Assembly: GCA_964349045.1 (NCBI GenBank)
Contig: CAYGFI010000008.1
Location: 1,393-65,392 of the forward strand
Reading direction: 5' to 3'
Source of the DNA: an uncultured Chitinophaga sp.
GTDB lineage: Bacteria; Bacteroidota; Bacteroidia; Bacteroidales; GCA-2748055
DNA length: 64,000 bases
In this document: piece after piece, positions 3,317 through 62,659 of the stretch
How the letters are laid out: every line of letters begins with the position of its first letter
Numbering within the stretch: the first letter of the stretch is position 1
Notes under the pieces: model-generated
Database searches by the model: none
Seen by the model: the letters and a program-made list of their open reading frames with translations, nothing else
Told to the model about the DNA's origin: nothing
Made by a program: the position numbers and the translations under genes

Positions 3317-3856
3317 TCAAATACATGGAACTGACTGAGCGGACGGATCTCCCATAAGTTCCCCTATGGTTGTTTCGATATTAATAGGAAAGTTTTTGAT
3401 GGATAAGCCACCAGCGCTGGCGGTAATATTTCCGATAAACGCGAGTTTTACGTTCCGCTGATCAAGCAAAAGACCGCTTATTGTGTCCCAACTGGCAGCG
3501 TTTTTGAGGGTATTTTTCGGGGAAAGGTCAACTGTAAAAGATAAAGCGCCAAAATTTTCGGCTAGAAGAACTGCAGGCTTATATTTATCCGGGGTATGCA
3601 CCTGGGCAACCCATTTTTTGTTGAGATAAATATCAATAACATACTTTGTAATAGTAAGATCGATTTTGCTCTTATTTTTTATAGCCAGGTCAGCTGTGAA
3701 AGCAATCCTTTTCGTGTTAAGCTCAATTATTTGGTAACTGGAAATACGGTAGCAATAATCCATGAGTAACTTAGCCTGGTTGCGGAAATGGCGAAAAAGG
3801 ACAACGCCCGCTATCCCAATCCCAACCAATCCTACTATTGCTAATGCCTTTTTCAC
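3317..3856 (-). CDS. N-terminally anchored membrane protein
   Basis: MKKALAIVGLVGIGIAGVVLF anchor followed by a beta-rich domain. 4-nt overlap with the upstream gene. Confidence 0.65.
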   Translation of the reverse strand: MKKALAIVGLVGIGIAGVVLFRHFRNQAKLLMDYCYRISSYQIIELNTKRIAFTADLAIKNKSKIDLTITKYVIDIYLNKKWVAQVHTPDKYKPAVLLAENFGALSFTVDLSPKNTLKNAASWDTISGLLLDQRNVKLAFIGNITASAGGLSIKNFPINIETTIGELMGDPSAQSVPCI

Positions 3857-24850: not shown

Positions 24851-27800
24851 TTATTGTTCAGTTAACGCATACAGGATTTCCAGCGCTTCAACCGCCTCTT
24901 TTTTCTGTTTTCCCTTCAAATCCGGAAGGACCTGGGTAATTGTATTTATAGCTTCCTGCACTTCCACCCTGTCAAATCCCACACCCGAGCCTGAAAGCTC
25001 GCCAATAGGGTGTTCGCTCATTCCTTCTTTGTGGATAATATCAATACCATTTGTTGCGCAGCACCCGTTTTCAGGAATTGGGCAATTCTCCCGGTCCGTG
25101 TTGTCCGATAAATAACTGAGCAAATAATTTTTTTCGGCAAATTTTGCCACCTGTGTCATTAAATCGCCCCGAATTAACTTTTTTGCAGCAATTTCAGATT
25201 CTATTTCGCGCATAACCGATTCTTTATATTCATCTGTTTTCAGACTATCTAAATACCCGGATGCTTCTTTAAATCTTTTATCGGTATCGCGTTTTAGTTT
25301 TGTTAGACTATCATACCAGGCAATACCATAAGGGTTAAGAACTGATTTTTCAGCTTTTCGTACATGGGAATAATGATCAATCATGTTTTTATAATCCCAA
25401 TGGCTTACTGACCATATTTCGCCCTCATACTCTTCTGTTAATTGCTCTACCTTATACCCAAAGGTTGTCCTTTCGGGTTCCAGATAAAAAGTTTTTATAT
25501 CAAGGTCACGGCAAATTTTAAGAAGCAGCGGCATATCGCATTTATTAGTTGCTTCAAACTGTAAAAATTCTTTTGTAAGTAGATCAATCTTTTCCGAATA
25601 GTCTTTTATCCTGCCAAGAAATTTTGTTTCACTTTCTTTTTTTGCTAAGACCGTGACTTTCCCTTTCAACAACCCGGAATATTCAATCCATTTTTTTGAT
25701 TTATTCTTTAAATCTCCATATACTTCATCGCGAGATTCAATCAACTGTTCTATATGAGAATCAATTTTTGAAATGGTTTCTATGTTTTCCTGTATAATGG
25801 CTAAGGTGCGGGTTGCATCCTTTACAACTGTCTCATATTTAATCTTAAATTTTTCTTCCGGATCTTCAACCAGCTCGTATTTTATCTCTTGCGGGTCCAT
25901 ATCCGAATTATCAATTTCTTCAACGTTACTTTCCCCAATATTATGCCACAGGGATGCAATACGTTTAGACTTTTCATCCTGCTTTTGAAACACGAAATTA
26001 TCCATTGAATTTATTACCAGCGGCATAATAAACCGCACGTACCCGAATTTATTTCCCTGTCTCCATATCCGGCCCTTTAATTGGCGAATATCAGTGGGGT
26101 TCCATTCAGGAAAAAGATCATGAATACACGTACCGCGGGCCTGCAGGTTAATTCCTTCGCGGATAGTAGACGTTCCGATAATTACTTTTACAATGCCGGC
26201 GTTAAAAGCATCTTTAATTAATTCTTTTCTATCGTCTGCAGCTTCGCCTCCGCCACCAGAAATTATTTCTACTTCATCCAGCTTTTCATCGTCATAAATG
26301 AGCCCGCGTTTCATTTTAAGATCATCCAAAAGGAATTGTTTGATATACTCAAAGTATTTTTCTCCGCGATTTGAATAAATTACCTGACCAGAAAGTTCTT
26401 CGCCCCTGGCTTCGTGCCAGTCTTTTATTGTACGAATACACTCAACTGCAAATTTGATCTTTGGACTCTGGTTTACAAATTCTTCTGCACTGTCCGGCTC
26501 CTGATTAGCAAAAAGGAACGGGCTGAATGCATTGTTTAAACTCATAGCAATAGCACGGAATACCGCACCCCTGTTTTGCCGCGATATGGCCGCTGCAGTT
26601 GATTTTACAACTACCTGGTTTTTTTTCTGCCAATCGTTCATATCCAAATAGGTGTTTATACCAAGTTGCTTATTTGGATAATCAATTAAACAAGGTCGTA
26701 CAACGTTTGCCTCTTTTGGATTGTCTTTATAATCGAAATGATTATAAAGAATTGTTTGCAGCAACTTTAAATTCTGGAAGGATTTTATTACCGGTTTCGT
26801 TACAATTTCTCCTACGTTGTTAACCGCATATTCAACCGTTTCCAATATAAAATTCTCAAAGAATTTTTTAATGTTATACAAATTATAATAATTGAGCGTA
26901 TCAAGGCCAATATAGGAAAGCATTGAATACATTTCGAGCGGTGAATTTGAGAAAGGCGTTGCCGTAAGAAGTACAACGTTTTTACCAAACTTACGCTGCA
27001 AATATTGAGATACGAAAAACATTTTTACCGCTCTGGAAGAACGACTGGAAGAAATACCAAAAAGTTTTCTACCGGTTTCCGGATCTTTACCGCAGGATGC
27101 AAAAACATTTTTAAAATTATGCGCTTCATCGACCGTCATGTGATCAAACCCAACTTTATTGATTTGCACAATGGCGTTTTTATTACCAAGTCCTAACCAG
27201 CCTTGCGCTTCTTCGCGGAATTTTACTTCTTCTTTTTCGTCCGTAGCATCTTTTTGAGCGATTACGTTGTAAATTGCATTAAACAAATCGCCGCTTATTT
27301 CCCGGCCATATCCCATCTGTTCAAAACCTTTATAGCTGACAACTGTAATAGTATTTTCAGGAACTTCCTTATTAAAATCAACCTTGTTTTCTGAAATTAA
27401 ACGCTCGTAATGCTTACCAGATAAATTATACCAGTCATTAACTTTTATCTCAGTTCCGGAGAAAACCCCGTAATGATATTGCGCTCCCTGAAAATGGGTA
27501 AACTCTACTTTCTCCCCATCTGTCCAATATCCAAATAATTCTTTCAGCCAATTTTTATACGTTGGTTTTGGAACTACAATTAACGGACGTTTAATTTTTC
27601 CCTGACTCATTAACTGAGCGATATTTAAAATCGCTGTAAGCGTTTTTCCAAACCCTACATCGTAGGCAATGCAACCGGAACCTACTAACTGCAGAAAGGC
27701 AAGGCCGTGCCGCTGTGCATTTTTTATTCCCAATGCACCCTCTTTAAACATTGCGCTGCCTGCGTATGCAATAGGAATTTTATCGACAAACTGATTAATG

Positions 27801-30127
27801 GAGGTAAAGGCATTATATTTTTCGTTCCAAACCAAGTCAAGGCGCACTGAATCTTCAAAAGTCAATGCAACGGAAAGAAATTCAGAAAATAATTCTTCTG
27901 AAGCTAACCGGGCATTACCAATTAACTCTGCTTTTTCACTTGCACTTAACTCGTCGTTTCCGTCTGAATCTTTGGGCCAGCGGATTGATTTTGCCCAATA
28001 ATAAGTAGAAATATTGCTTTTGGTAGTATTTTTAAGATCGCTGTCTTTAACCGTTTCAGTGGTCCAAGCCTGAAAAGCCTCAAATAAAGAAACGGGCTCA
28101 GTTGCCGCCTGAAAACGGCCCCGTTTAGTTGCCCCAATTTTTACACCAGTAAGTTCATTTAACTCTAAAATACCAAAGTTTTCGGCTTCCATGCCAAAAG
28201 CAGAAAGGCTTAAAATATGGGGGCGGGCGGTTTTTATAGGATCTCGGAAAGTACGTTGCTTTGGTTTATAACCTTCTGCTATGGCCAGTTGTTTTTCATA
28301 AATTTCAACTCCGTATTTTTCAATTATCCGGGCCTCATTTGTTTTAAGTATATCGATTTTTTTATATATATCCCCGAAGTAAAATACAGGTACCGGAAAA
28401 TAATCGTCTCCATCAAAGATCAAAGCACCTTCTTTTACCAGGTTGTCAATTTCAGCTTTACTAGCGAGAGGTTTTGTTTTTGTTTCCTTAACGTCTTTTT
28501 TATTTACCCAGATCAGTTCATTGTTTTCTGTTCGGATAATTATATATGTTTCAGTTCCATACTGATTTTTGAACTTTGTCTTTTTTCCTAACGTAGTACC
28601 TGCAGGAACTAACCTGATATCAGCGTACTTATTATCTTTTAGCATTGTTTCCTTTGAGGTAATTATTACCTCTGAAACTTCTCCGGTACCAGCCAAATAA
28701 TATTTATTCCAGCCCTTCATCGGGTTCCCGAATTGCCGCTTATACCATACCCAGGCTTTTAATTCGCTCTCAGATATACCAGGATTATAGCGGGTAATGC
28801 TTTCTTCAATGGTAATGTTTTCCTTTTTTTCATCATCATCCAAAAGGTTATTGGCTTTTATAACCGCAAAATCTTGTTTAGTAATTTCAATTTCAGGAAC
28901 TACGGTTTCTGTGTTGTTTTTTTCTTGCTCAAAATCAGTTGGCGAGAGTCTTATAATTTCCTGTACTCTGTCACCAGAACAGCACCTTGCACTAATTTTT
29001 TTATCCCCTTCATAAAAATCATTTCGCACTTCTACCTCCATACCAGCCGTGGCATGTTTAGAAACATTTTTATTGAGTTTTAAAATAGTTCCTGCTTTTA
29101 TTAAAATCTTTGGTTCCATGTCGGTTCTTTCTTCTGGTTTGGCTTTTTGTTGCCACTTATTTTGCCACTCTTTATGTTTTTTGTCGTAATCCTCTTTTGA
29201 AATGCCGGTTAAGGGGCCTTCAAATTGCTCATTAACTTTTTCAGAAGTCATGCTTTTATAATTTATATTAAATGCATCAATTCTGTAAGCATACTCAGTT
29301 TCCAGATCAACAATTCTACGAATTATTCCATACCATGTTTCTTTTTCTGTGTCCCCTTGCTCATATTTTACATGATCATCAACCGCATAAAAAGCGGGAG
29401 CCCTTACTTCTTCTGGTTTCTTTTTAGAGGTTTTCATATTGAGCGCATTTTTTAATAAAACAGTTTCCTTATTATATTCAGGATCGATTAAAAAATCGTT
29501 TAAAACTTTTTTTGATATTTTTTTTCCAGCAATAACAGCTTCAACTATTTGTTTTAACTGATATTTCCAAAGTTCCCGTGAAAACATTTCCGGGGAAAAC
29601 TCTTTTTCTTTTTGAAGGTTTTTTGGAATATCGAACGCGAAATTTTGTGCTTCGTAATAATCCCCTACCTGCAAATCCCCGTTTATTTCTTTTGTTATTG
29701 CGTTTTTATGTAAAATGATATTTTTTTTAAACTCACTAAACGTCATTTCATAAATTTCTTTTTTAGTGGTAGGAATACCCTTTTCTTTTTCAGTTATGGC
29801 TGTTTGTAAAAACAAATTTATCTGATCAATAACCTGTTCAATAGTTCCTACCACCAAAACAGGATTTAAAAACCCGCTACCTGGTTTAATTGTGCCCGCA
29901 ACATGGCTGGGGTTTATCGCGAAGAAATTTGCGTTTGATATTTTTTCTAAATCCGTATCGGGACCAGTAATAAAAGTATAGTTGCCAAGAAACTGCACGT
30001 ATTCTACCAGAAGTTTTTCGGGAATAAAGCCATTGGAAAGAAGGCGTTTTGTTTCTTCGTCCCCCGAAGCGGTTGCCTCGTTTATTTTTTCATTTATGAA
30101 TTCGGTACGTGCCCTGTAACTTCCCAT
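24851..30127 (-). CDS. SNF2/DEAD-like helicase, 1758 aa
   Basis: Motif I VGFGKT, motif II VDEAHNFKN, motif III LLTATPFSNSPLEMY, motif V TSTIREGINLQ, motif VI QLKGRIWRQGN. About 800 aa at the N-terminus and 350 aa at the C-terminus are unassigned. Confidence 0.9.
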   Translation of the reverse strand: MGSYRARTEFINEKINEATASGDEETKRLLSNGFIPEKLLVEYVQFLGNYTFITGPDTDLEKISNANFFAINPSHVAGTIKPGSGFLNPVLVVGTIEQVIDQINLFLQTAITEKEKGIPTTKKEIYEMTFSEFKKNIILHKNAITKEINGDLQVGDYYEAQNFAFDIPKNLQKEKEFSPEMFSRELWKYQLKQIVEAVIAGKKISKKVLNDFLIDPEYNKETVLLKNALNMKTSKKKPEEVRAPAFYAVDDHVKYEQGDTEKETWYGIIRRIVDLETEYAYRIDAFNINYKSMTSEKVNEQFEGPLTGISKEDYDKKHKEWQNKWQQKAKPEERTDMEPKILIKAGTILKLNKNVSKHATAGMEVEVRNDFYEGDKKISARCCSGDRVQEIIRLSPTDFEQEKNNTETVVPEIEITKQDFAVIKANNLLDDDEKKENITIEESITRYNPGISESELKAWVWYKRQFGNPMKGWNKYYLAGTGEVSEVIITSKETMLKDNKYADIRLVPAGTTLGKKTKFKNQYGTETYIIIRTENNELIWVNKKDVKETKTKPLASKAEIDNLVKEGALIFDGDDYFPVPVFYFGDIYKKIDILKTNEARIIEKYGVEIYEKQLAIAEGYKPKQRTFRDPIKTARPHILSLSAFGMEAENFGILELNELTGVKIGATKRGRFQAATEPVSLFEAFQAWTTETVKDSDLKNTTKSNISTYYWAKSIRWPKDSDGNDELSASEKAELIGNARLASEELFSEFLSVALTFEDSVRLDLVWNEKYNAFTSINQFVDKIPIAYAGSAMFKEGALGIKNAQRHGLAFLQLVGSGCIAYDVGFGKTLTAILNIAQLMSQGKIKRPLIVVPKPTYKNWLKELFGYWTDGEKVEFTHFQGAQYHYGVFSGTEIKVNDWYNLSGKHYERLISENKVDFNKEVPENTITVVSYKGFEQMGYGREISGDLFNAIYNVIAQKDATDEKEEVKFREEAQGWLGLGNKNAIVQINKVGFDHMTVDEAHNFKNVFASCGKDPETGRKLFGISSSRSSRAVKMFFVSQYLQRKFGKNVVLLTATPFSNSPLEMYSMLSYIGLDTLNYYNLYNIKKFFENFILETVEYAVNNVGEIVTKPVIKSFQNLKLLQTILYNHFDYKDNPKEANVVRPCLIDYPNKQLGINTYLDMNDWQKKNQVVVKSTAAAISRQNRGAVFRAIAMSLNNAFSPFLFANQEPDSAEEFVNQSPKIKFAVECIRTIKDWHEARGEELSGQVIYSNRGEKYFEYIKQFLLDDLKMKRGLIYDDEKLDEVEIISGGGGEAADDRKELIKDAFNAGIVKVIIGTSTIREGINLQARGTCIHDLFPEWNPTDIRQLKGRIWRQGNKFGYVRFIMPLVINSMDNFVFQKQDEKSKRIASLWHNIGESNVEEIDNSDMDPQEIKYELVEDPEEKFKIKYETVVKDATRTLAIIQENIETISKIDSHIEQLIESRDEVYGDLKNKSKKWIEYSGLLKGKVTVLAKKESETKFLGRIKDYSEKIDLLTKEFLQFEATNKCDMPLLLKICRDLDIKTFYLEPERTTFGYKVEQLTEEYEGEIWSVSHWDYKNMIDHYSHVRKAEKSVLNPYGIAWYDSLTKLKRDTDKRFKEASGYLDSLKTDEYKESVMREIESEIAAKKLIRGDLMTQVAKFAEKNYLLSYLSDNTDRENCPIPENGCCATNGIDIIHKEGMSEHPIGELSGSGVGFDRVEVQEAINTITQVLPDLKGKQKKEAVEALEILYALTEQ

Positions 30128-31041: not shown

Positions 31042-32205
31042 TTATTTTTTTTTGAAGATTATTATATCCGTCCCTACGTCAGTTGTTGAAAAAACGCCAT
31101 TTGGTAATCGGAATGAGGTAATAAACTCCCCGATCTTTAAAATTTCTTCTTTCATGTTATTGTACATAGCCCCATTGTTCATAAAATTCTGAGAAACAAT
31201 ATAAACAAGGATGCCATCTTTTTTAAGAAGTTTTAAGCCTAAAAGTACAAACAAAAACTCAAAGCGTTTAAACGCCTTTGGCATGTAGCTCTTATAATAC
31301 CCCATATAATCACCATAAGGCGGGTTTCCGATTACCAGATCCATTTCAGGCAACCAGCTTTTCTTTATGGCTCTTGAGTAATTTGGAGCCTCCAAAAAAG
31401 CAGTTTCAAATTCCTGCTGGTAAAAAATATATCTTTCTGTGTCCGGGTATAATAATTTCGCGATTCGCAAATTAAGTGTGTCCGGATCAAACCCGTAGCA
31501 GGTTGCATTTTCCGGTGCAAACTTGAAAAACCGGCCAGTCCCACAGCTGGGCTCACACATAGTTAAATTTTCTCGGGGAACGCCCAGGCTAAAAGCAAGG
31601 TCCCACATTTTTTTTATTATGGGGTAGGGTGTGTAAAACTGGTGCAAAATTCCTTTATCAACAACTCCCTTAACGGAGCCCAACCCTTCATAAAGCTCTA
31701 ATGTGCCCCGCTGAAAGTCCGTTAACTTATTCGGGTTTTCCGATAATATTTCCTGAGTTTGGTTAGCAATAGATTCCCTCTGAGATTTTGAGAGCTTTGG
31801 GTATTTAGCGATCAAATCCTGATCAGTATTTAATTCTCCGGGGTCTGCGCTTTGTTCTAAGGCGCTCAATTCCTTTTCGTACTTCTGCATTTCCTGCAGA
31901 TACATTTCTTTAAGAGCTTTGCCGGCGGTTTTTATTGCCTCCTTTTTTTCGCTTATTGATCTTTTTAACTGCGAAATTCTTATTTCTTTGCCGCTTTTTA
32001 CAAATTGCATGCGGGTTTCAAACTCAGCTATTGGCACCCAATAAGCCGGAAATGTTTCAGAAGGTGTGGTAAAAGTTGGAATTACCCGGATATCAGTTGT
32101 TGAAAATTTAAGAACCTTTACCTGCCGGTTTTTCTGGCTGTCCTCAAAAACATCATCAATTTCTATTGTTTTCCCAAAATGGGTAGGTGAAGCCGGGTTT
32201 TTCAT
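31042..32205 (-). CDS. N6-adenine DNA methyltransferase
   Basis: AdoMet motif I CEPSCGTGRFF and catalytic motif IV VIGNPPYGDY. Confidence 0.85.
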   Translation of the reverse strand: MKNPASPTHFGKTIEIDDVFEDSQKNRQVKVLKFSTTDIRVIPTFTTPSETFPAYWVPIAEFETRMQFVKSGKEIRISQLKRSISEKKEAIKTAGKALKEMYLQEMQKYEKELSALEQSADPGELNTDQDLIAKYPKLSKSQRESIANQTQEILSENPNKLTDFQRGTLELYEGLGSVKGVVDKGILHQFYTPYPIIKKMWDLAFSLGVPRENLTMCEPSCGTGRFFKFAPENATCYGFDPDTLNLRIAKLLYPDTERYIFYQQEFETAFLEAPNYSRAIKKSWLPEMDLVIGNPPYGDYMGYYKSYMPKAFKRFEFLFVLLGLKLLKKDGILVYIVSQNFMNNGAMYNNMKEEILKIGEFITSFRLPNGVFSTTDVGTDIIIFKKK

Positions 32206-42197: not shown

Positions 42198-42611
42198 TTA
42201 AAGTACCATATCCTCGCATTCCTTACGGAAATGCTTAAATACGAAATGGCATTGCTCAGAGGTGCCCATTACAAGGCGCGGCCCGACAGCCGTATGCGTA
42301 AGATCGTAGCGCGTAAACGCAAAGCCGAACCCGAACCCCGAGGGGCGGGTTTTATCGGTTTTTAGCCAATACCAAAGGCTGTATTTATCCTGAGTATTGC
42401 CGGTTACAAAGGTTGGGACAAAACCCATAATCTTGTTTATTGCCTTTATAACCGTCATTAGCTTGTAACGGGCTACCAGGTCTTTTGCAAAATCCTTTTC
42501 CAGCCCCTTAACAATTGGGAGCTTTTTAGGATCTTTTTTGAGGAACTTGCATGCCAAAGCAAATGTTGTAAATTGCTTGTATGCATCCGGTGAAATTTGT
42601 TTTTTGCTCAT
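42198..42611 (-). CDS. DGR target protein 1
   Basis: 137 aa. Carries VR1, encoding PSGFGFGFAFTRYDLTHTAVGPR. No signal peptide or TM segment. Confidence 0.8.
   Translation of the reverse strand: MSKKQISPDAYKQFTTFALACKFLKKDPKKLPIVKGLEKDFAKDLVARYKLMTVIKAINKIMGFVPTFVTGNTQDKYSLWYWLKTDKTRPSGFGFGFAFTRYDLTHTAVGPRLVMGTSEQCHFVFKHFRKECEDMVL
42278..42347 (-). repeat. DGR variable repeat VR1
   Basis: 14 differences from the TR, all at TR adenines. Confidence 0.85.
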
Positions 42612-42642: not shown

Positions 42643-43038
42643 TTATTCGCTCAAAAATTCTATGTAAATTTTACTTAATTCAGGATGTTTGCAGAACCAT
42701 TCGCAAATTTCTTCATCCAAAAATTCAAGGCGCGGCCCGACAAACGTATACGTACGAACGTAGCCCGCATTCGCACCGTCGAACCCGAACCCCGAGGGGC
42801 CTTTTATAAACCACGGAAACCATTTTTCCTGCATACCGTTGTTATGGTCAACCTTTCCCTTGCCGCCATTAAACAGGCGGGTTGTAAGCGTTATCTTTTT
42901 AAACGCATTGTGAGAAATTTCGTCCGAATCCTTTGGGTCCGGATATGGCAAACATTTTACCGGATCAACACCACATGCAGCGGCTATATCCTCCCAGCTA
43001 TTAATGCTGGCTTTGAGTTTTTTTACTGATTCTGTCAT
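42643..43038 (-). CDS. DGR target protein 2
   Basis: 131 aa, paralog of target 3. Carries VR2, encoding PSGFGFDGANAGYVRTYTFVGPR. Confidence 0.8.
   Translation of the reverse strand: MTESVKKLKASINSWEDIAAACGVDPVKCLPYPDPKDSDEISHNAFKKITLTTRLFNGGKGKVDHNNGMQEKWFPWFIKGPSGFGFDGANAGYVRTYTFVGPRLEFLDEEICEWFCKHPELSKIYIEFLSE
42732..42800 (-). repeat. DGR variable repeat VR2
   Basis: 13 differences from the TR, all at TR adenines. Confidence 0.85.
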
Positions 43039-43079: not shown

Positions 43080-43625
43080 TTACTCGGAATAATACTGGTT
43101 ATACATTTCCTGAAAAAATGGTTTCTTCATAAGTGCAAGGAATATTTCTCTGTCCAAAAATTCAAGGCGCGGCCCGACATACGTATGCGTACGATCGTCG
43201 TACGTACTCGCAGCGCCGAACCCGAACCCCGAGGGGCCTTTCTTCATCCATGCCCAGGTTCTACGTTGTTGCGGGTTGCTATAATCTACTTTTCCACGAC
43301 CGCCGTTAAATAAGCGGCTGGTGTGTTGAATCTTCCAGCCGGCGTTACAGGAAATTTCATCTATGGTCTGTGGATTAGGAAAAGGCAGGCAATTAACCGG
43401 GTGTAAACTCTGTTCTGCAGCTACATCATCCCAGCTATTAATGCGGTCTATTAATTTAAGGGAGAAGAAATCTTTCCCGTAGTTTTCTTCCAAAACAGCT
43501 TTAAATTCAGCATCGGCGGTTGGGTAAAGTTTTCTGGCTAATGCATCAGAAATAGTAAGGGGCTTTTTTTCGGTGTTCATGCTTTTTTTGATTAGTTTAT
43601 AGATGATTTTTTCAAAGATATTCAT
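43080..43625 (-). CDS. DGR target protein 3
   Basis: 181 aa. Carries VR3, encoding PSGFGFGAASTYDDRTHTYVGPR. Confidence 0.8.
   Translation of the reverse strand: MNIFEKIIYKLIKKSMNTEKKPLTISDALARKLYPTADAEFKAVLEENYGKDFFSLKLIDRINSWDDVAAEQSLHPVNCLPFPNPQTIDEISCNAGWKIQHTSRLFNGGRGKVDYSNPQQRRTWAWMKKGPSGFGFGAASTYDDRTHTYVGPRLEFLDREIFLALMKKPFFQEMYNQYYSE
43169..43237 (-). repeat. DGR variable repeat VR3
   Basis: 12 differences from the TR: 11 at TR adenines and one at a T. Confidence 0.85.
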
Positions 43626-43633
43626 TTTAATAA

Positions 43634-43715
43634 GTTAATTTAAAAGTGAATTGAAGTTAATTTAAAAATGAATTGCAATATGTGGCTAAAAAAATAGTTA
43701 ATTTAAAAGTGAATT
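43634..43715. promoter_or_regulatory. three copies of a 19-bp motif, GTTAATTTAAAAGTGAATT
   Basis: Copies at 43634-43652, 43656-43674 (one mismatch) and 43697-43715, directly upstream of the start of DGR target 3. Confidence 0.5.
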
Positions 43716-43798
43716 GCTTTTATCTGATCTTCAATAGGTTTAATGGTTTCGGTGGAATAACACCCCAAATATATTAATTTCATTTTATTAATTGGCTT

Positions 43799-44866
43799 TC
43801 ATAAAAATATTCCGTGTTTTTTAAGTAAATCTAAAAATGCTATTTCTGCAGTCTGTTCAACAACTCCATTTCCTTCCATCCGAAGAAGATCCTCTCTAAA
43901 GTTGTACCCATTAATTGTGCAACCCATATTGGAGATAAGACGGGCCGCTTCCCAATCATATTGTTCTTGCCCTGGTCTGGCAGGCCATCTTTTTCTTCTA
44001 CCATTGCACATAAATATTTCCGGTCCAACATGTGTTTCTGTGATTTGGAACCTTTTGGGCCCATTCCCTTGTATTCCGAGCTCCGGGGTGTAGGCCACCC
44101 CCCCCCCCCTTGATCCTCCAGAAATTCTACTTGGCCCTGTAACCCCATGTCCTTGCCCCGTTTCAATCTGGTTTTGTAACTCTCCTGACCTCCGACCCTT
44201 GGTGTTGACCAGTTCATTTGAATTGCCTGCGGTAAATTTACTGAGTGCATTGAGCCTTCCTTTTGTTGGGAAGATTTCATTGAATCCGGATGTTTGTCTG
44301 AAACTTTCGGGGAAGGCCAATTTATCAATCGCAAGGATGAATAATCTTTTTCTCTGGTGTGGTGCGCCAGCTTCTTCCGCTGAGTATATTCCTGCTTCAA
44401 CTGAGTAGCCCAAATCTGATAGGTCTTTGTAAACCTGGTCAAATCCCATTGTAATGTGTCCGATAACGTTTTCGAAGAAGCACCAAACAGGTCGAATTGT
44501 TCCAACTGGCTTATGTATATACGGCCAAAGGTGTCTGGGATCTTCTGCTCCTTTTCGTTTTCCAGCCTGGCTAAATGGCTGGCAGGGATAACCGCCAATG
44601 ATTCCGTGTATTTTTCTGTGAAATGGTTCTGGGATGAAGGTTTTAAGATTCGCCCAAATAGGTGCGGAATCCAATAAACCTTTTTCCATAAGCGAGACAA
44701 GGTTTTCAATGATAAAGGCTTCGATTTCCACATAAGCTGCAACCCGGATTTTTCCAATAGCTCGTTCGATTCCTCTTTCGATTCCACACATTCCGCTGCA
44801 TAAGCTGAGTACAACGGGTGATTTGAAGGCACTATCCACATTATTATTGTTTTTTATAAGGTCCAT
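43799..44866 (-). CDS. DNA (cytosine-5)-methyltransferase (frame A)
   Basis: Motif I LSLCSGMCG, IV GGYPCQPFSQAG, VI FFENV, VIII QRKRLFILA, and C-terminal GNGVVEQTAEIAF (motif X-like). The central ~115 aa is Gly-rich and atypical. Confidence 0.8.
   Translation of the reverse strand: MDLIKNNNNVDSAFKSPVVLSLCSGMCGIERGIERAIGKIRVAAYVEIEAFIIENLVSLMEKGLLDSAPIWANLKTFIPEPFHRKIHGIIGGYPCQPFSQAGKRKGAEDPRHLWPYIHKPVGTIRPVWCFFENVIGHITMGFDQVYKDLSDLGYSVEAGIYSAEEAGAPHQRKRLFILAIDKLAFPESFRQTSGFNEIFPTKGRLNALSKFTAGNSNELVNTKGRRSGELQNQIETGQGHGVTGPSRISGGSRGGGVAYTPELGIQGNGPKRFQITETHVGPEIFMCNGRRKRWPARPGQEQYDWEAARLISNMGCTINGYNFREDLLRMEGNGVVEQTAEIAFLDLLKKHGIFL
43840..44841 (-). CDS. second open frame (+1 relative to frame A) carrying methyltransferase-like motifs
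   Basis: 333 codons with no stop, on the same strand. Contains NWPSPKVSD, NWSTPRVGG, GWPTPRSSEYKG and LSPIWVAQLMG, which resemble the WPTPxxxD repeats and LNPxFVEWLMG motif of phage-type C5 methyltransferases. Confidence 0.4.
   Translation of the reverse strand: MWIVPSNHPLYSAYAAECVESKEESNELLEKSGLQLMWKSKPLSLKTLSRLWKKVYWIPHLFGRILKPSSQNHFTEKYTESLAVIPASHLARLENEKEQKIPDTFGRIYISQLEQFDLFGASSKTLSDTLQWDLTRFTKTYQIWATQLKQEYTQRKKLAHHTREKDYSSLRLINWPSPKVSDKHPDSMKSSQQKEGSMHSVNLPQAIQMNWSTPRVGGQESYKTRLKRGKDMGLQGQVEFLEDQGGGGWPTPRSSEYKGMGPKGSKSQKHMLDRKYLCAMVEEKDGLPDQGKNNMIGKRPVLSPIWVAQLMGTTLERIFFGWKEMELLNRLQK
44098..44109. repeat. homopolymer C12 (G12 on the coding strand)
   Basis: Twelve consecutive C, read as GGGG in both open frames of the methyltransferase locus. 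Confidence 0.95.
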
Positions 44867-62057: not shown

Positions 62058-62151
62058 GTTAATTTAAAAGTGAATTTAAAAAAGTTTTAAACAGCCGCCG
62101 CAGAAATTCCTTCTTTTTCCAAAATATCAGAAGTTAATTTAAAAGTGAATT
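62058..62151. promoter_or_regulatory. two more copies of GTTAATTTAAAAGTGAATT
   Basis: Exact copies at 62058-62076 (intergenic, upstream of 61505-62023) and at 62133-62151 (inside the 3' end of 62087-62659). Confidence 0.5.
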
Positions 62152-62659
62152 CCTGCAGGCTTTCAAGTGTGGGAGAAATGCGGCCTACCCCGAAAATATG
62201 TAGGGGTATATAGCTGGCCTCTGGGTGCAATATCATGGCCTTTGCAGCCTCAATATCAAGGCCACTTTTAAATAAAAAGGCCATATCAAAGGCTGGAATT
62301 TTTAAGCGCCATGCCGTGATAATTTCAAATATTGCGCCTAGGCTATTTTCGTAGCCTGGAAGCATGAATATAAGGCCACATGAGGCCAGTTCTTTTAAGT
62401 CTTTTCTCATAGCCTCATGCCACCACGGAATTTCTGGGTTATGGCCTGAATTTTTATTTTGTACTGGGTTAATCACATGCGGGTTTATTGGCGTTAGGCC
62501 CATATCGCGCAGGAACGTTTCAGCGGCGGTAAAAGCTGGCCTATTCAAATCTTCAATGCCTGTTATTGGACCGCATATATAAGCCCGATTGCTGGCTGTG
62601 CGTACAATATCTGTTTTGTAGGGGCCGGTGTAAAACACGGAGGTCATAATTGCGCTCAT
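62087..62659 (-). CDS. DUF4406 / nucleoside 2-deoxyribosyltransferase-like protein
   Basis: AYICGPITGIEDLNRPAFTAAETFLRDMGLTPINP resembles the YISGPMTG...N...F..A...L...G..v.NP pattern of that family. Confidence 0.6.
   Translation of the reverse strand: MSAIMTSVFYTGPYKTDIVRTASNRAYICGPITGIEDLNRPAFTAAETFLRDMGLTPINPHVINPVQNKNSGHNPEIPWWHEAMRKDLKELASCGLIFMLPGYENSLGAIFEIITAWRLKIPAFDMAFLFKSGLDIEAAKAMILHPEASYIPLHIFGVGRISPTLESLQEFTFKLTSDILEKEGISAAAV

What the first reader, a model, noticed from the sequence alone, without database searches (positions are those of the whole stretch)
43799..44866. C5-methyltransferase locus with two fully open overlapping frames, motifs split between them, and a G12 tract
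Frame A (43799-44866, 355 aa) has C5-MTase motifs I, IV (PCQ), VI (ENV) and VIII (QRKRLF) in its first ~180 aa, and RWPARPG...GNGVVEQTAEIAF at the end. Its middle ~115 aa is Gly-rich and featureless.

Frame B (43840-44841, 333 codons, +1 relative to A, same strand) has no stop over 1 kb. In the region where A is featureless, it encodes NWPSPKVSD, NWSTPRVGG, GWPTPRSSEYKG and LSPIWVAQLMG. From memory, these resemble the WPTPxxxD repeats and the LNPxFVEWLMGFP (motif IX region) of phage-type C5 methyltransferases. So a canonical enzyme seems to be distributed over two frames, yet neither frame has acquired a stop codon. That is unexpected for an AT-rich genome if the gene were simply decayed. All other same-strand nested ORFs in the window are 60-100 codons long.

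A 12-nt G run (44098-44109) lies inside the overlap and reads GGGG in both frames. The decamer AGAAAAAGAT occurs at 44344-44353 and 43987-43996, bracketing the segment where frame B looks genuine.

Possible explanations are a slippage-dependent or phase-variable methyltransferase, programmed frameshifting, a true overlapping gene pair, or a very recent double frameshift.
Basis: partly seen in the sequence, partly recalled or inferred. Interest (0 to 1): 0.7.

Follow-up and report, generated by a model that had tools for sequence, protein, structure and literature searches.

The report
Two-subunit cytosine methyltransferase, overlapping genes
One 1-kb stretch of this phage-like genome encodes two different proteins in two reading frames, most likely the catalytic and DNA-recognition subunits of one DNA cytosine methyltransferase; this layout was described in 1995 for M.EcoHK31I but is rarely annotated, and here it is not a decayed or frameshifted gene.

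Summary
On the minus strand, ORF alpha (43799-44866, 355 aa) and ORF beta (43840-44841, 333 aa, +1 frame) overlap almost completely. A G12 tract sits at 44098-44109.

It is not decay and not programmed frameshifting. About 50 loci retrieved through alpha alone show the same pair, in phages of Bacteroidota-like, Firmicutes and Proteobacteria hosts. Synonymous resampling shows each frame is kept stop-free where the other carries the conserved protein. The third frame has the expected number of stops. The frame under strongest selection switches from alpha (catalytic half) to beta (linker/TRD segment).

[quoted passage not shown] Beta has an N-terminal extension, WPxP repeats and an LNPxWVxQLMG segment. 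It probably supplies the missing small (target-recognition) domain.

The closest precedent is M.EcoHK31I, whose beta is nested in alpha in another frame. Paenibacillus phage records already annotate such nested pairs.

The AGAAAAAGAT repeat is coincidental. The G12 tract is unique to this genome. A change of one base would break both subunits, so it may act as a phase switch, but this could not be tested.

Verdict: new member of a known kind, moderate interest.

The parts
43799..44866 (-). alpha ORF (355 aa): C5-cytosine methyltransferase large (catalytic) subunit
   Evidence: ORF listed. PF00145 E 6e-29. phrog_363 matches the full length. More than 5762 homologues, all carrying PF00145. AF2 pTM 0.66. 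Foldseek top hits are M.HaeIII and M.HhaI at E about 1e-13, aligning about 170 residues.
43840..44841 (-). beta ORF (333 aa), +1 frame, nested inside alpha: putative target-recognition (small-domain) subunit
   Evidence: ORF listed. phrog_1008 'DNA methyltransferase' E 1.8e-14. 181 homologues, E down to 1e-97, covering 96-100% of the query, all starting MWI[IVL]P. 26,268 clusters at E <= 1e-3 in the exhaustive profile search.
44327..44812 (-). alpha residues 19-180: motifs I (LSLCSG), IV (GGYPCQPFS), VI (ENV), VIII (QRKRLFILA)
   Evidence: Motif positions. pLDDT above 90. Mean frequency of the commonest residue 0.74. Variation peaks at alpha's third codon position.
43991..44326 (-). alpha residues 181-292: non-conserved Gly-rich linker that reads through beta's repeat region
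   Evidence: Conservation 0.21, 17% Gly. pLDDT 35-40 for residues 215-291. Kept stop-free: 0 stops against 5.6 expected, P = 0.001.
43802..43990 (-). alpha residues 293-355: RWPARPGQEQYDWE segment and motif X (GNGVVEQTAEIAF)
   Evidence: Conservation 0.76. pLDDT 79-97 for the helices at 323-350. The same segment is in alpha's frame in nearly all relatives.
44326..44841 (-). beta residues 1-172: N-terminal extension overprinted on alpha's catalytic half
   Evidence: The +1 frame has 0 stops against 6.05 expected (none of 2000 resamples had 0, P < 0.0005). Conserved in 88 homologues, consensus MWIIPSNHPLYSAF...LMWKSKP...HLFGRxLKPS. AF2 on beta alone is confident only for a helix at about 128-164. 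In the Firmicutes subfamily, alpha's synonymous sites are constrained only where this extension overlaps.
43942..44325 (-). beta residues 173-300: W-P/S-x-P repeat region (NWPSP 44308-44322, NWSTP 44200-44214, GWPTP 44086-44100), putative TRD
   Evidence: Repeat positions. The number of repeats varies from 2 to more than 5 among homologues. Variation peaks at beta's third codon position here.
43906..43938 (-). beta residues 302-312: LSPIWVAQLMG, the motif-IX-like segment
   Evidence: Nearly invariant L302, N303, P304, W306, V307, Q309, L310, M311, G312. In L015 and L031 the homologous segment lies just upstream of RWPA...motif X in a single frame. The equivalence to motif IX is not confirmed by Pfam or hhalign.
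44837..44866 (-). Start region: alpha ATG 44864-44866 (overlaps the end of the upstream gene, whose stop is at 44854-44856); beta ATG 44839-44841; alpha-frame GTG 44837-44839 within the conserved ATGTGGATA
   Evidence: Sequence. NTG-TGG-ATA is conserved in about 15 relatives. Several relatives (L005, L006, L020, L021, L035, L036) have no alpha-frame ATG, only this GTG. AGGAG or GGAG lies 7-9 nt upstream in L006, L026, L027 and L030.
44098..44109 (-). G12 homopolymer (C12 on the + strand) in the doubly coding region; encodes GGGG (beta) and GGG (alpha)
   Evidence: G11 or G14 gives an alpha-N/beta-C fusion plus a truncated beta. G10 or G13 gives a truncated alpha plus a beta-N/alpha-C fusion. 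Only G9, G12 or G15 keep both products intact.

Best explanation
The locus holds two real, almost co-extensive overlapping genes that together encode a two-subunit DNA (cytosine-5) methyltransferase.

Alpha (frame 0) is the large catalytic domain. It carries motifs I-VIII and, after a non-conserved flexible linker, the C-terminal helix with motif X. It lacks the small target-recognition domain that canonical enzymes insert between motifs VIII and X.

Beta (+1 frame) is translated separately from its own ATG, 25 nt downstream of alpha's ATG. That ATG overlaps an alpha-frame GTG, which is the only available alpha start in several relatives. Beta supplies an N-terminal extension that probably docks on alpha, a variable array of W-P-T-P repeat units (the TRD), and an LNPxWVxQLMG segment in the position of motif IX.

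Alpha's linker exists only to carry alpha's reading frame across the DNA that encodes beta's TRD. Beta's N-terminal extension is overprinted on alpha's catalytic half. The two polypeptides are inferred to assemble into the active enzyme, as shown experimentally for M.EcoHK31I.

Shown here: the dual coding, the selection on both frames, alpha's fold, and the conservation of beta.

Inferred: that both are translated, that they form a heterodimer, that beta determines target specificity, and that the complex has methyltransferase activity.
For: 1. Conserved layout. C75C1, Lacticaseibacillus, Paenibacillus, Salmonella SEN5, Pseudomonas Haboob and Lactobacillus Lc-Nu phages, plus about 40 metagenomic or genomic loci retrieved with alpha only, all carry a beta-like ORF in the +1 frame. 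The +1 frame is open for 200-520 codons; the +2 frame is open for only 11-100.

2. Selection for openness in both directions. The +1 frame has 0 stops against 2.4-6 expected over the catalytic half, with per-locus P from below 0.0005 to 0.05 in about 12 loci. Alpha's frame has 0 stops against 2-9 expected over the linker in 17 loci. The third frame matches expectation in both tests.

3. The dominant frame switches. Mismatches peak at alpha's third position in the N-terminal half (0.50) and at beta's third position in the TRD (0.66). All positions are constrained in the motif IX / pre-X segment.

4. Internal control. Where beta starts about 60 codons into alpha (Firmicutes type), alpha's synonymous sites are saturated upstream (0.375, null 0.372). 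They are conserved only in the overlapped part (0.662, null 0.375 +/- 0.013).

5. Alpha is the large domain only. AF2 gives a confident core and motif X helices and a disordered linker. Foldseek aligns about 170 of about 325 residues of M.HaeIII and M.HhaI.

6. Natural variants. In L015 and L031 alpha stops after motif VIII and beta continues in frame into motif X. This shows that beta's C-terminal part belongs to the methyltransferase.

7. Separate initiation. Beta has a conserved start (MWI[IVL]P). SD-like motifs lie upstream of beta starts in other subfamilies.

8. Precedent and annotation. M.EcoHK31I needs alpha and a beta that is nested in alpha's other frame (PMC2836561, PMC3404938). Paenibacillus phage Bloom annotates both nested CDS as cytosine methyltransferase.
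Against: - Beta does not score against PF00145 or NCBIfam. Splicing beta's segment into alpha adds nothing to the PF00145 score (103.5 against 102 bits).
- The beta profile finds no PDB relative.
- hhalign does not align LNPxWVxQLMG with motif IX of two canonical enzymes.
- AF2 on beta alone is low-confidence (pLDDT 63.5, pTM 0.32).
- In the window's subfamily, selection on beta's N-terminal sequence could not be separated from constraint through alpha, because the +1 and +2 frame identities rose together.
- There is no expression, interaction or methylation data for this locus.
- The literature places the M.EcoHK31I TRD in alpha, not beta, so the subunit division may differ.
Confidence: 0.8

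Rival explanations
1. Programmed ribosomal frameshifting (+1 after motif VIII, then -1 before motif X) makes one canonical single-chain methyltransferase, using the A5 tracts in the two AGAAAAAGAT decamers.
For: The order motifs I-VIII (frame A), WPxP repeats and LNP..LMG (frame B), motif X (frame A) mimics a canonical enzyme. The decamer occurs near both junctions.
Against: - The decamer is not conserved in any relative. It is simply R-K-R codons in alpha.
- Motif VIII continues in frame A past the first decamer.
- In relatives, beta's SWPTP shares its nucleotides with alpha's FILAY. Beta's LNPAWVEQLMG shares its nucleotides with alpha's conserved pre-X segment. One chain cannot contain both members of each pair.
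- Frameshifting would not require frame B to be open for 165 codons upstream of the shift, or frame A to be open across the linker, yet both are under selection.
- The spliced chimera gains nothing against PF00145.
Confidence: 0.04
2. It is a decaying gene with two recent compensating indels, or an assembly error at homopolymers.
For: Long homopolymers such as G12 are error-prone. The closest relative, L007, has a stop inside alpha.
Against: - The same two-frame layout is found in about 50 loci from different phyla and different sequencing projects.
- Both frames are stop-free far beyond expectation.
- Homology is consistent on both sides of the G tract in both frames.
Confidence: 0.03
3. Beta is a genuine, selected protein, but it is not a methyltransferase subunit. 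It could be, for example, an independent DNA-binding or regulatory protein overprinted on the gene. Alpha would then work alone or with a TRD encoded elsewhere.
For: - Beta has no Pfam, NCBIfam or PDB link to methyltransferases.
- A short alpha with no beta exists (L042).
- Canonical single-chain enzymes of phages MM1 and 5093 also carry a 141-aa +1 ORF of unknown role.
Against: - Beta occurs only inside alpha genes that lack a TRD and motif IX.
- In L015 and L031 beta is fused in frame to motif X.
- phrog_1008 covers beta plus alpha's C-terminal tail in one profile.
- M.EcoHK31I provides an experimental precedent (PMC2836561).
Confidence: 0.1
4. This is an added layer, not a replacement. The G12 tract is a hypermutable contingency switch, acting through DNA or transcriptional slippage, that turns the enzyme off or on by shifting both subunits at once.
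For: - It is the only G/C run of 7 or more in 64 kb at 38% GC; a chance run of 12 is expected at about 3e-4 per window (my calculation from the composition).
- It lies in the doubly coding region.
- A change of one base destroys both intact products, while a change of three keeps both.
- Relatives carry G7-G9 runs elsewhere in the pair.
Against: - No tract-length variant could be found. There is no near-identical relative in IMG/VR or in the protein index.
- The G-runs of relatives are at non-homologous sites and are only weakly enriched.
- The tract may be a neutral slippage product that encodes a tolerated Gly insertion (QGGGGWPTP against Q[IV]NWPTP in relatives).
Confidence: 0.25

Closest known systems
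M.EcoHK31I (E. coli; Lee, Kam & Shaw 1995, as described in PMC2836561 and PMC3404938)
   Same: - It is a C5-methyltransferase made of two polypeptides.
- Beta is encoded entirely inside the alpha gene in another reading frame.
[quoted passage not shown]
- Both polypeptides are required for activity.
- Beta's N-terminal part is needed for association with alpha.
   Different: - Here beta is nearly as long as alpha (333 of 355 codons; about 94% of alpha is doubly coding). From memory, not checked here, M.EcoHK31I is 176 aa inside 309 aa.
- Here beta's ATG lies 25 nt after alpha's ATG and overlaps an alpha-frame GTG 2 nt downstream.
- Here the repeat-type TRD is in beta and alpha has only a disordered linker. 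The literature places the predicted TRD of M.EcoHK31I in alpha.
- This is a phage-borne orphan enzyme, with no adjacent restriction gene seen.
- Sequence homology to M.EcoHK31I could not be tested.
M.AquI (Karreman & de Waard 1990, as described in PMC3404938)
   Same: It is a two-subunit C5-methyltransferase split within the variable region. Relatives L015 and L031 have this layout: alpha is motifs I-VIII only, and beta runs through the TRD, the motif-IX-like segment and motif X.
   Different: In the window, motif X stays on alpha through the read-through linker. Beta is fully nested and does not extend past alpha.
Nested pairs annotated in Paenibacillus larvae phages (for example BLOOM_56/BLOOM_57, MH454077)
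   Same: Same family and same layout. Alpha is 351 aa. A 234-aa ORF nested in the +1 frame has WxTP repeats and LNPDWVECLMGFPIGWT. Alpha's tail, KWPAGLGQEQYDWEPARI, matches the window's RWPARPGQEQYDWEAARL.
   Different: Their beta starts about 60 codons into alpha, just upstream of motif IV. Identity to the window's alpha is about 32%. The accompanying paper (PMC6070908) does not discuss the overlap.
Overlapping C5-methyltransferase ORFs of Streptococcus phages MM1 and the 5093 group, and Tn5252 (PMC5601072)
   Same: A +1-frame ORF lies inside a phage C5-methyltransferase gene. The paper calls it 'apparent total overlap ... in different reading frames'.
   Different: Their main ORF is a complete canonical single-chain enzyme with motifs I-X. 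The +1 ORF is only 141 aa and has no WPTP repeats or LNP..LMG segment. It is not the split alpha/beta architecture.

Membership tests
C5-cytosine DNA methyltransferase (PF00145), applied to alpha | Catalytic motifs I, IV (PCQ), VI (ENV) and VIII, with a significant profile match | tested here: met
   PF00145 E 6e-29, 102 bits against a cutoff of 22, residues 19-241. Motifs located. Foldseek matches M.HaeIII and M.HhaI at E about 1e-13.
C5-cytosine DNA methyltransferase (PF00145), applied to alpha | TRD and motif IX lying between motifs VIII and X in the same chain | tested here: not met
   The profile is matched only to position 219 of 324. Residues 181-292 are non-conserved and predicted disordered. 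Only about 170 residues align to solved enzymes.
M.EcoHK31I-type nested two-subunit C5-methyltransferase | Alpha carries motifs I-VIII and motif X in one frame | tested here: met
   Motifs I-VIII as above. GNGVVEQTAEIAF is at residues 332-344, is conserved (0.82), and lies in a confidently modelled helix region. phrog_363 matches residues 14-345.
M.EcoHK31I-type nested two-subunit C5-methyltransferase | [quoted passage not shown] | tested here: met
   Beta is 43840-44841, inside alpha 43799-44866, in the +1 frame. The arrangement is conserved and under selection.
M.EcoHK31I-type nested two-subunit C5-methyltransferase | Beta carries motif IX | tested here: inconclusive
   LSPIWVAQLMG is nearly invariant in the family. 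In the fused variants L015 and L031 it sits just upstream of motif X. But PF00145 gives no score and hhalign produces no alignment.
M.EcoHK31I-type nested two-subunit C5-methyltransferase | Both polypeptides are made and both are required for methylation | not testable with these tools
   Needs expression and methylation assays. Only the selection on both frames speaks to it indirectly.
M.EcoHK31I-type nested two-subunit C5-methyltransferase | Sequence homology to M.EcoHK31I alpha and beta | not tested
   The sequence could not be reached. The original paper (PMC306636) is not held, and PMC2836561 has no supplement held as text.
Programmed-frameshift gene | A conserved slippery site at the frame junctions, with the 0-frame product terminating soon after the shift site | tested here: not met
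   No motif is conserved at either junction in 17 relatives. Both frames stay open throughout.
Simple-sequence contingency (phase-variable) locus | A long homopolymer in the coding region whose length change shifts the frame | tested here: met
   G12 at 44098-44109. Consequences of length changes modelled.
Simple-sequence contingency (phase-variable) locus | Observed tract-length heterogeneity between or within populations | not testable with these tools
   No reads are available and no near-identical relative was found.

The most novel reading that the evidence does not exclude
The G12 tract, placed in DNA read in two frames, is a hypermutable switch. A single slippage event would inactivate or re-pair both subunits of a phage-borne orphan C5-methyltransferase at once. 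This would give mixed methylated and unmethylated progeny, a hedge between type II restriction (evaded by methylation) and methyl-dependent type IV restriction (triggered by methylation). More broadly, this subfamily may be among the longest same-strand fully overlapping gene pairs: about 1 kb, with beta's start codon overlapping an alpha-frame GTG 2 nt downstream, possibly served by one initiation region. It also appears to be widespread and largely unannotated in phages.
Probability: 0.25. Interest if true: 0.65.

Novelty: new member of a known kind. Interest (0 to 1): 0.42.

Why it matters
**Annotation.** Gene callers report only one of the two frames. In SEN5, Haboob, Lc-Nu, C75C1 and the Lacticaseibacillus phages only alpha is annotated. 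Elsewhere beta is called as an unnamed hypothetical protein: 26,268 clusters match the beta profile. The probable specificity subunit of a large class of phage cytosine methyltransferases is therefore routinely missed. This undermines predictions of phage methylation specificity and of evasion of restriction.

**Overlapping genes.** The locus is a clean, well-populated natural example of long same-strand dual coding. The dominant frame changes along the gene, so it could serve as a test case for methods that detect overlapping genes.

**The G12 tract.** If the tract varies in length, this would be a phase-variable phage methyltransferase.

**Limit.** The principle itself (beta nested in alpha, both needed) has been known since M.EcoHK31I in 1995. 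This finding extends that principle; it does not establish a new one.

Tried and rejected
1. Pfam and NCBIfam on frame B, on beta's C-terminal half, on the Bloom and L015 beta ORFs, and on two in-silico constructs (A1-181 + B174-318 + A327-355, and alpha with the linker deleted). No hit for beta, and no gain for the chimera.

2. PDB sequence searches with beta and with an 88-sequence beta profile. Nothing found.

3. hhalign of the beta profile against the canonical MM1 and 5093 enzymes. No meaningful alignment. The template had only 2 sequences, so this is weak negative evidence.

4. AF2 on beta alone. pLDDT was 63.5, too poor for a fold search, so I did not run one.

5. Synonymous-resampling test of +1-frame identity in the window's subfamily. 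The +1 and +2 frame identities rose together, so the test could not isolate selection on beta's N-terminal sequence. I replaced it with the internal control in the Firmicutes-type loci and the codon-phase test.

6. The AGAAAAAGAT decamers as slippery sites or recombination scars. Rejected: absent in all relatives, and both copies are R-K-R codons in alpha.

7. G12 as the frame-switch point. Rejected: beta's repeats are in one frame on both sides of it.

8. Search for tract-length variants. An IMG/VR pattern scan and an exact-protein contig look-up both found nothing.

9. The published streptococcal 'total overlap' cases as the same thing. Rejected after reading the sequences: they are canonical single-chain enzymes with a short +1 ORF.

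10. The original M.EcoHK31I and MM1 papers are not held.
Full report
**1. Observation**

The feature lies on the minus strand. ORF A (alpha) runs 43799..44866 and encodes 355 aa. ORF B (beta) runs 43840..44841 and encodes 333 aa. Beta is offset +1 from alpha and lies wholly inside it.

A C12 run on the plus strand, which is G12 on the coding strand, lies at 44098-44109. The decamer ATCTTTTTCT (reverse complement AGAAAAAGAT) is at 44344-44353 and 43987-43996.

Alpha scores PF00145 at E 6e-29 over residues 19-241 and matches phrog_363 over its full length. Beta has no Pfam hit but matches phrog_1008 'DNA methyltransferase' at E 1.8e-14. The extreme C-terminus of alpha matches the end of that same profile.

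The other 55 open spans of 150 codons or more in the window (57 counting the two frames of this locus) contain same-strand nested stop-free runs of at most 85 or 100 codons, median 38. This locus has 337. The G12 tract is the only G/C homopolymer of 7 or more in the 64-kb, 38%-GC window.

**2. The layout is conserved, not decayed**

tblastn with beta hit phage C75C1 and two Lacticaseibacillus phages. Each hit started at an offset of 3n+1 from the annotated methyltransferase CDS.

Their ORF maps show the same design:
- Frame 0 holds motifs I-VIII, a low-complexity stretch and a motif X tail.
- Frame +1 holds a long ORF with WPTP repeats ending in LNPxWVEWLMGxPxGWT.

The same holds in Paenibacillus phage Bloom, where both nested CDS are annotated as cytosine methyltransferase (BLOOM_56 and BLOOM_57). 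It also holds in Salmonella phage SEN5, Pseudomonas phage Haboob and Lactobacillus phage Lc-Nu, where only alpha is annotated.

I retrieved loci with alpha alone, so retrieval was unbiased with respect to beta. This gave 12 viral, 34 metagenomic and 5 genomic loci. In almost all of them:
- the +1 frame is open for 200-520 codons, against 11-100 for the +2 frame;
- the beta-like segment is always in the +1 frame;
- motif X is in frame 0.

Informative exceptions:
- In L015 and L031, alpha stops just after motif VIII. Beta continues in one frame through the repeats, LNPDWVESLMGFPIGWT, RWPAAMGQEQYDWEPP and motif X. This is the M.AquI-like layout.
- L042 has a short alpha and no beta.
- L007 has a stop inside alpha.

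**3. Selection on both frames**

*Stop avoidance.* I resampled alpha's synonymous codons using each gene's own codon usage, which is a conservative null. This predicts 2.4-6 stops in the +1 frame across the catalytic half. In most loci 0 were seen; four had 1-2, attributed to alpha open spans that begin upstream of the real start. Per-locus P(0) ranges from below 0.0005 to 0.05. The +2 frame carries the expected number of stops.

In the reverse test I resampled beta's codons. This predicts 2-9 stops in alpha's frame across the linker, and 0 are seen in 17 loci. The third frame again matches expectation.

*Synonymous sites.* Alpha's third positions are conserved at 0.575 against a null of 0.39 in the window's subfamily. 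This raised the +1 and +2 frame identities equally, so it could not isolate selection on beta.

A cleaner control exists in the Firmicutes-type loci, where beta begins about 60 codons into alpha. At equal amino-acid identity (0.60 against 0.63), the results were as follows:

| Segment of alpha | Third-position identity | Null |
|---|---|---|
| Alpha-only part | 0.375 | 0.372 +/- 0.017 |
| Part overlapped by beta's N-terminal extension | 0.662 | 0.375 +/- 0.013 |

So in that subfamily beta's extension is itself under purifying selection.

*Codon phase.* In the window's subfamily, mismatches peak as follows:

| Segment | Beta pos1 (alpha pos2) | Beta pos2 (alpha pos3) | Beta pos3 (alpha pos1) | Dominant frame |
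|---|---|---|---|---|
| Catalytic half | 0.26 | 0.50 | 0.35 | alpha |
| Linker / TRD | 0.57 | 0.54 | 0.66 | beta |
| Motif IX / pre-X | 0.22 | 0.35 | 0.31 | both constrained |

**4. What the two proteins are**

*Alpha.* More than 5762 homologues were found, all carrying PF00145. In 91 aligned sequences the linker has no consensus residue, while RLFILA and WPAxPGExQxEWExPR...GNGVVEQTAELAF are conserved.

AF2 (pTM 0.66) gives pLDDT above 90 for residues 13-190, 79-97 for the C-terminal helices, and 35-40 for residues 215-291. Foldseek's best hits are M.HaeIII and M.HhaI at E about 1e-13. Only about 170 of their roughly 325 residues align.

From established knowledge of the M.HhaI structure, the large domain is built from motifs I-VIII plus motif X, and the small domain from the TRD plus motif IX. 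On that basis alpha is a complete large domain whose small-domain insert is replaced by a flexible linker.

*Beta.* 181 close homologues were found, with E down to 1e-97 and 96-100% coverage. All start MWI[IVL]P, none has a catalytic motif, and they carry 2 to more than 5 W-x-T-P units. The exhaustive profile search found 26,268 clusters at E <= 1e-3.

Beta's identity as the small domain is inferred from four things:
- its obligate nesting in alpha genes that lack a TRD;
- the variants in which it is fused to motif X;
- the phrog_1008 match;
- the M.EcoHK31I precedent.

Direct tests of this identity failed or were weak: Pfam, NCBIfam, PDB sequence search, hhalign, and AF2 on beta alone.

**5. 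Why not frameshifting**

- The decamer is absent in all relatives and is only R-K-R codons in alpha.
- No motif is conserved at either junction.
- In relatives, beta's SWPTP shares its nucleotides with alpha's FILAY (motif VIII). Beta's LNPAWVEQLMG shares its nucleotides with alpha's conserved pre-X segment. Alpha's RWPARPGQE overlaps beta's DGLPxPD. A single shifted chain could not contain both members of each pair.
- Frameshifting would also leave the selected openness of both off-segments unexplained.

**6. Initiation**

Alpha's ATG (44864-44866) overlaps the end of the upstream gene, whose stop is at 44854-44856. Beta's ATG is at 44839-44841.

The sequence NTG-TGG-ATA is conserved across the subfamily. 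Its embedded GTG is in alpha's frame and is the only available alpha start in L005, L006, L020, L021, L035 and L036. AGGAG or GGAG lies 7-9 nt upstream in several loci.

One initiation region may therefore serve both frames. This is an inference. In other subfamilies, SD-like motifs precede internal beta starts.

**7. The G12 tract**

The tract replaces 'x-N' before the last WPTP: QGGGGWPTP in the window against Q[IV]NWPTP in relatives. Relatives carry G7-G9 runs at other, non-homologous positions.

Modelled consequences of length changes:
- G11 or G14: an alpha-N/beta-C fusion plus a truncated beta.
- G10 or G13: a truncated alpha plus a beta-N/alpha-C fusion.
- G9, G12 or G15: both products intact.

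So the tract is a plausible ON/OFF switch. No variant could be found for comparison.

**8. Context**

The window looks like a phage genome. It has a virion structural domain protein, a DarB-like antirestriction giant ORF, a terminase-like ATPase, an RNase H and one tRNA-Met. An orphan methyltransferase fits this anti-restriction setting. That fit is an inference.

**9. Comparison with known systems**

M.EcoHK31I is the closest precedent. Its beta is encoded entirely in another frame of alpha. Alpha has motifs I-VIII and X, beta has motif IX, both are required for activity, and beta's N-terminus is needed for association (PMC2836561, PMC3404938). M.AquI matches the L015 and L031 variants.

McDonnell et al. 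2017 (PMC5601072) noted 'apparent total overlap ... in different reading frames' for C5-methyltransferases in S. thermophilus 5093-group phages, phage MM1 and Tn5252. However, the MM1 and 5093 enzymes are canonical single-chain proteins with only a 141-aa +1 ORF.

I therefore file the locus as a new member of the M.EcoHK31I kind, with three possible variant features:
- near-total co-extension of the two ORFs;
- closely spaced starts, with beta's ATG overlapping an alpha-frame GTG;
- the TRD placed in beta.

Homology to M.EcoHK31I itself could not be tested.

**10. Verdict**

The finding is real and well explained. Interest is moderate, at 0.42. The principle is known, but the family is very large, mostly unannotated, and an unusually clean case of long dual coding. 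The G12 tract adds an untested phase-variation possibility.

Noticed in passing
window 43635-43653, 43657-43675, 43698-43716 (+); also 62059-62077 and 62134-62152: The 19-mer TTAATTTAAAAGTGAATTG occurs three times in the 173-nt gap just downstream of the methyltransferase stop, which is upstream of the next minus-strand gene. It occurs twice more near 62.1 kb. With up to 3 mismatches there are 6 matches against 0.25 expected. It may be an operator or promoter element.
   Followed up: partly
window 42198-42611, 42643-43038, 43080-43625 (-): Three tandem paralogous small genes (137, 131 and 181 aa) share a PSGFGFG...T.VGPRL core. The 181-aa one has no PHROG hit.
   Followed up: partly
window 24851-30127 and 31042-32205 (-): A 1758-aa ORF and a 387-aa ORF match DarB-like antirestriction, methyltransferase and helicase PHROGs (phrog_1685, phrog_11801, phrog_10089). 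This would be a second anti-restriction function in the same genome.
   Followed up: no
L060 7631-8056 (phage MM1 ORF14); L059 6218-6643 (phage 5093): These canonical single-chain C5-methyltransferases also carry a 141-aa ORF in the +1 frame over motifs IV-VIII, ending in ...SLSDILEEEVDERYFLS. Its function is unknown, and it differs from the split alpha/beta type.
   Followed up: partly
L007 about 3838-3840 (IMGVR_UViG_3300001838_000149): The closest relative (63% identity to alpha) has an in-frame stop inside alpha's conserved WPARPGEP*YEWEEP segment, while beta is intact. This could be a pseudogene, a sequencing error or a recoding event.
   Followed up: no
L042 (ERZ802830 contig), L015 and L031: Layout variants occur within the family. 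L042 has a short alpha with a linker of about 25 codons and no +1 ORF. L015 and L031 have alpha ending after motif VIII, with beta fused in frame to motif X. This suggests that simple indels convert the M.AquI-like layout into the M.EcoHK31I-like one and back.
   Followed up: partly
L017/L018 alpha nt 296 and 287; L022 nt 916; L030 nt 910; L035 nt 936: Coding-strand G9, G8, G7 and G7 runs occur at non-homologous positions inside the alpha/beta pair of several relatives. The enrichment over chance is only weak.
   Followed up: partly
P0319 and P0075 (Dyadobacter chromosome, 4.29 Mb): A bacterial chromosome record has both frames annotated: alpha as 'DNA cytosine methyltransferase' (399 aa) and beta as 'hypothetical protein DYBT9275_02713' (386 aa). 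This points to Bacteroidota hosts or prophages for this subfamily.
   Followed up: no
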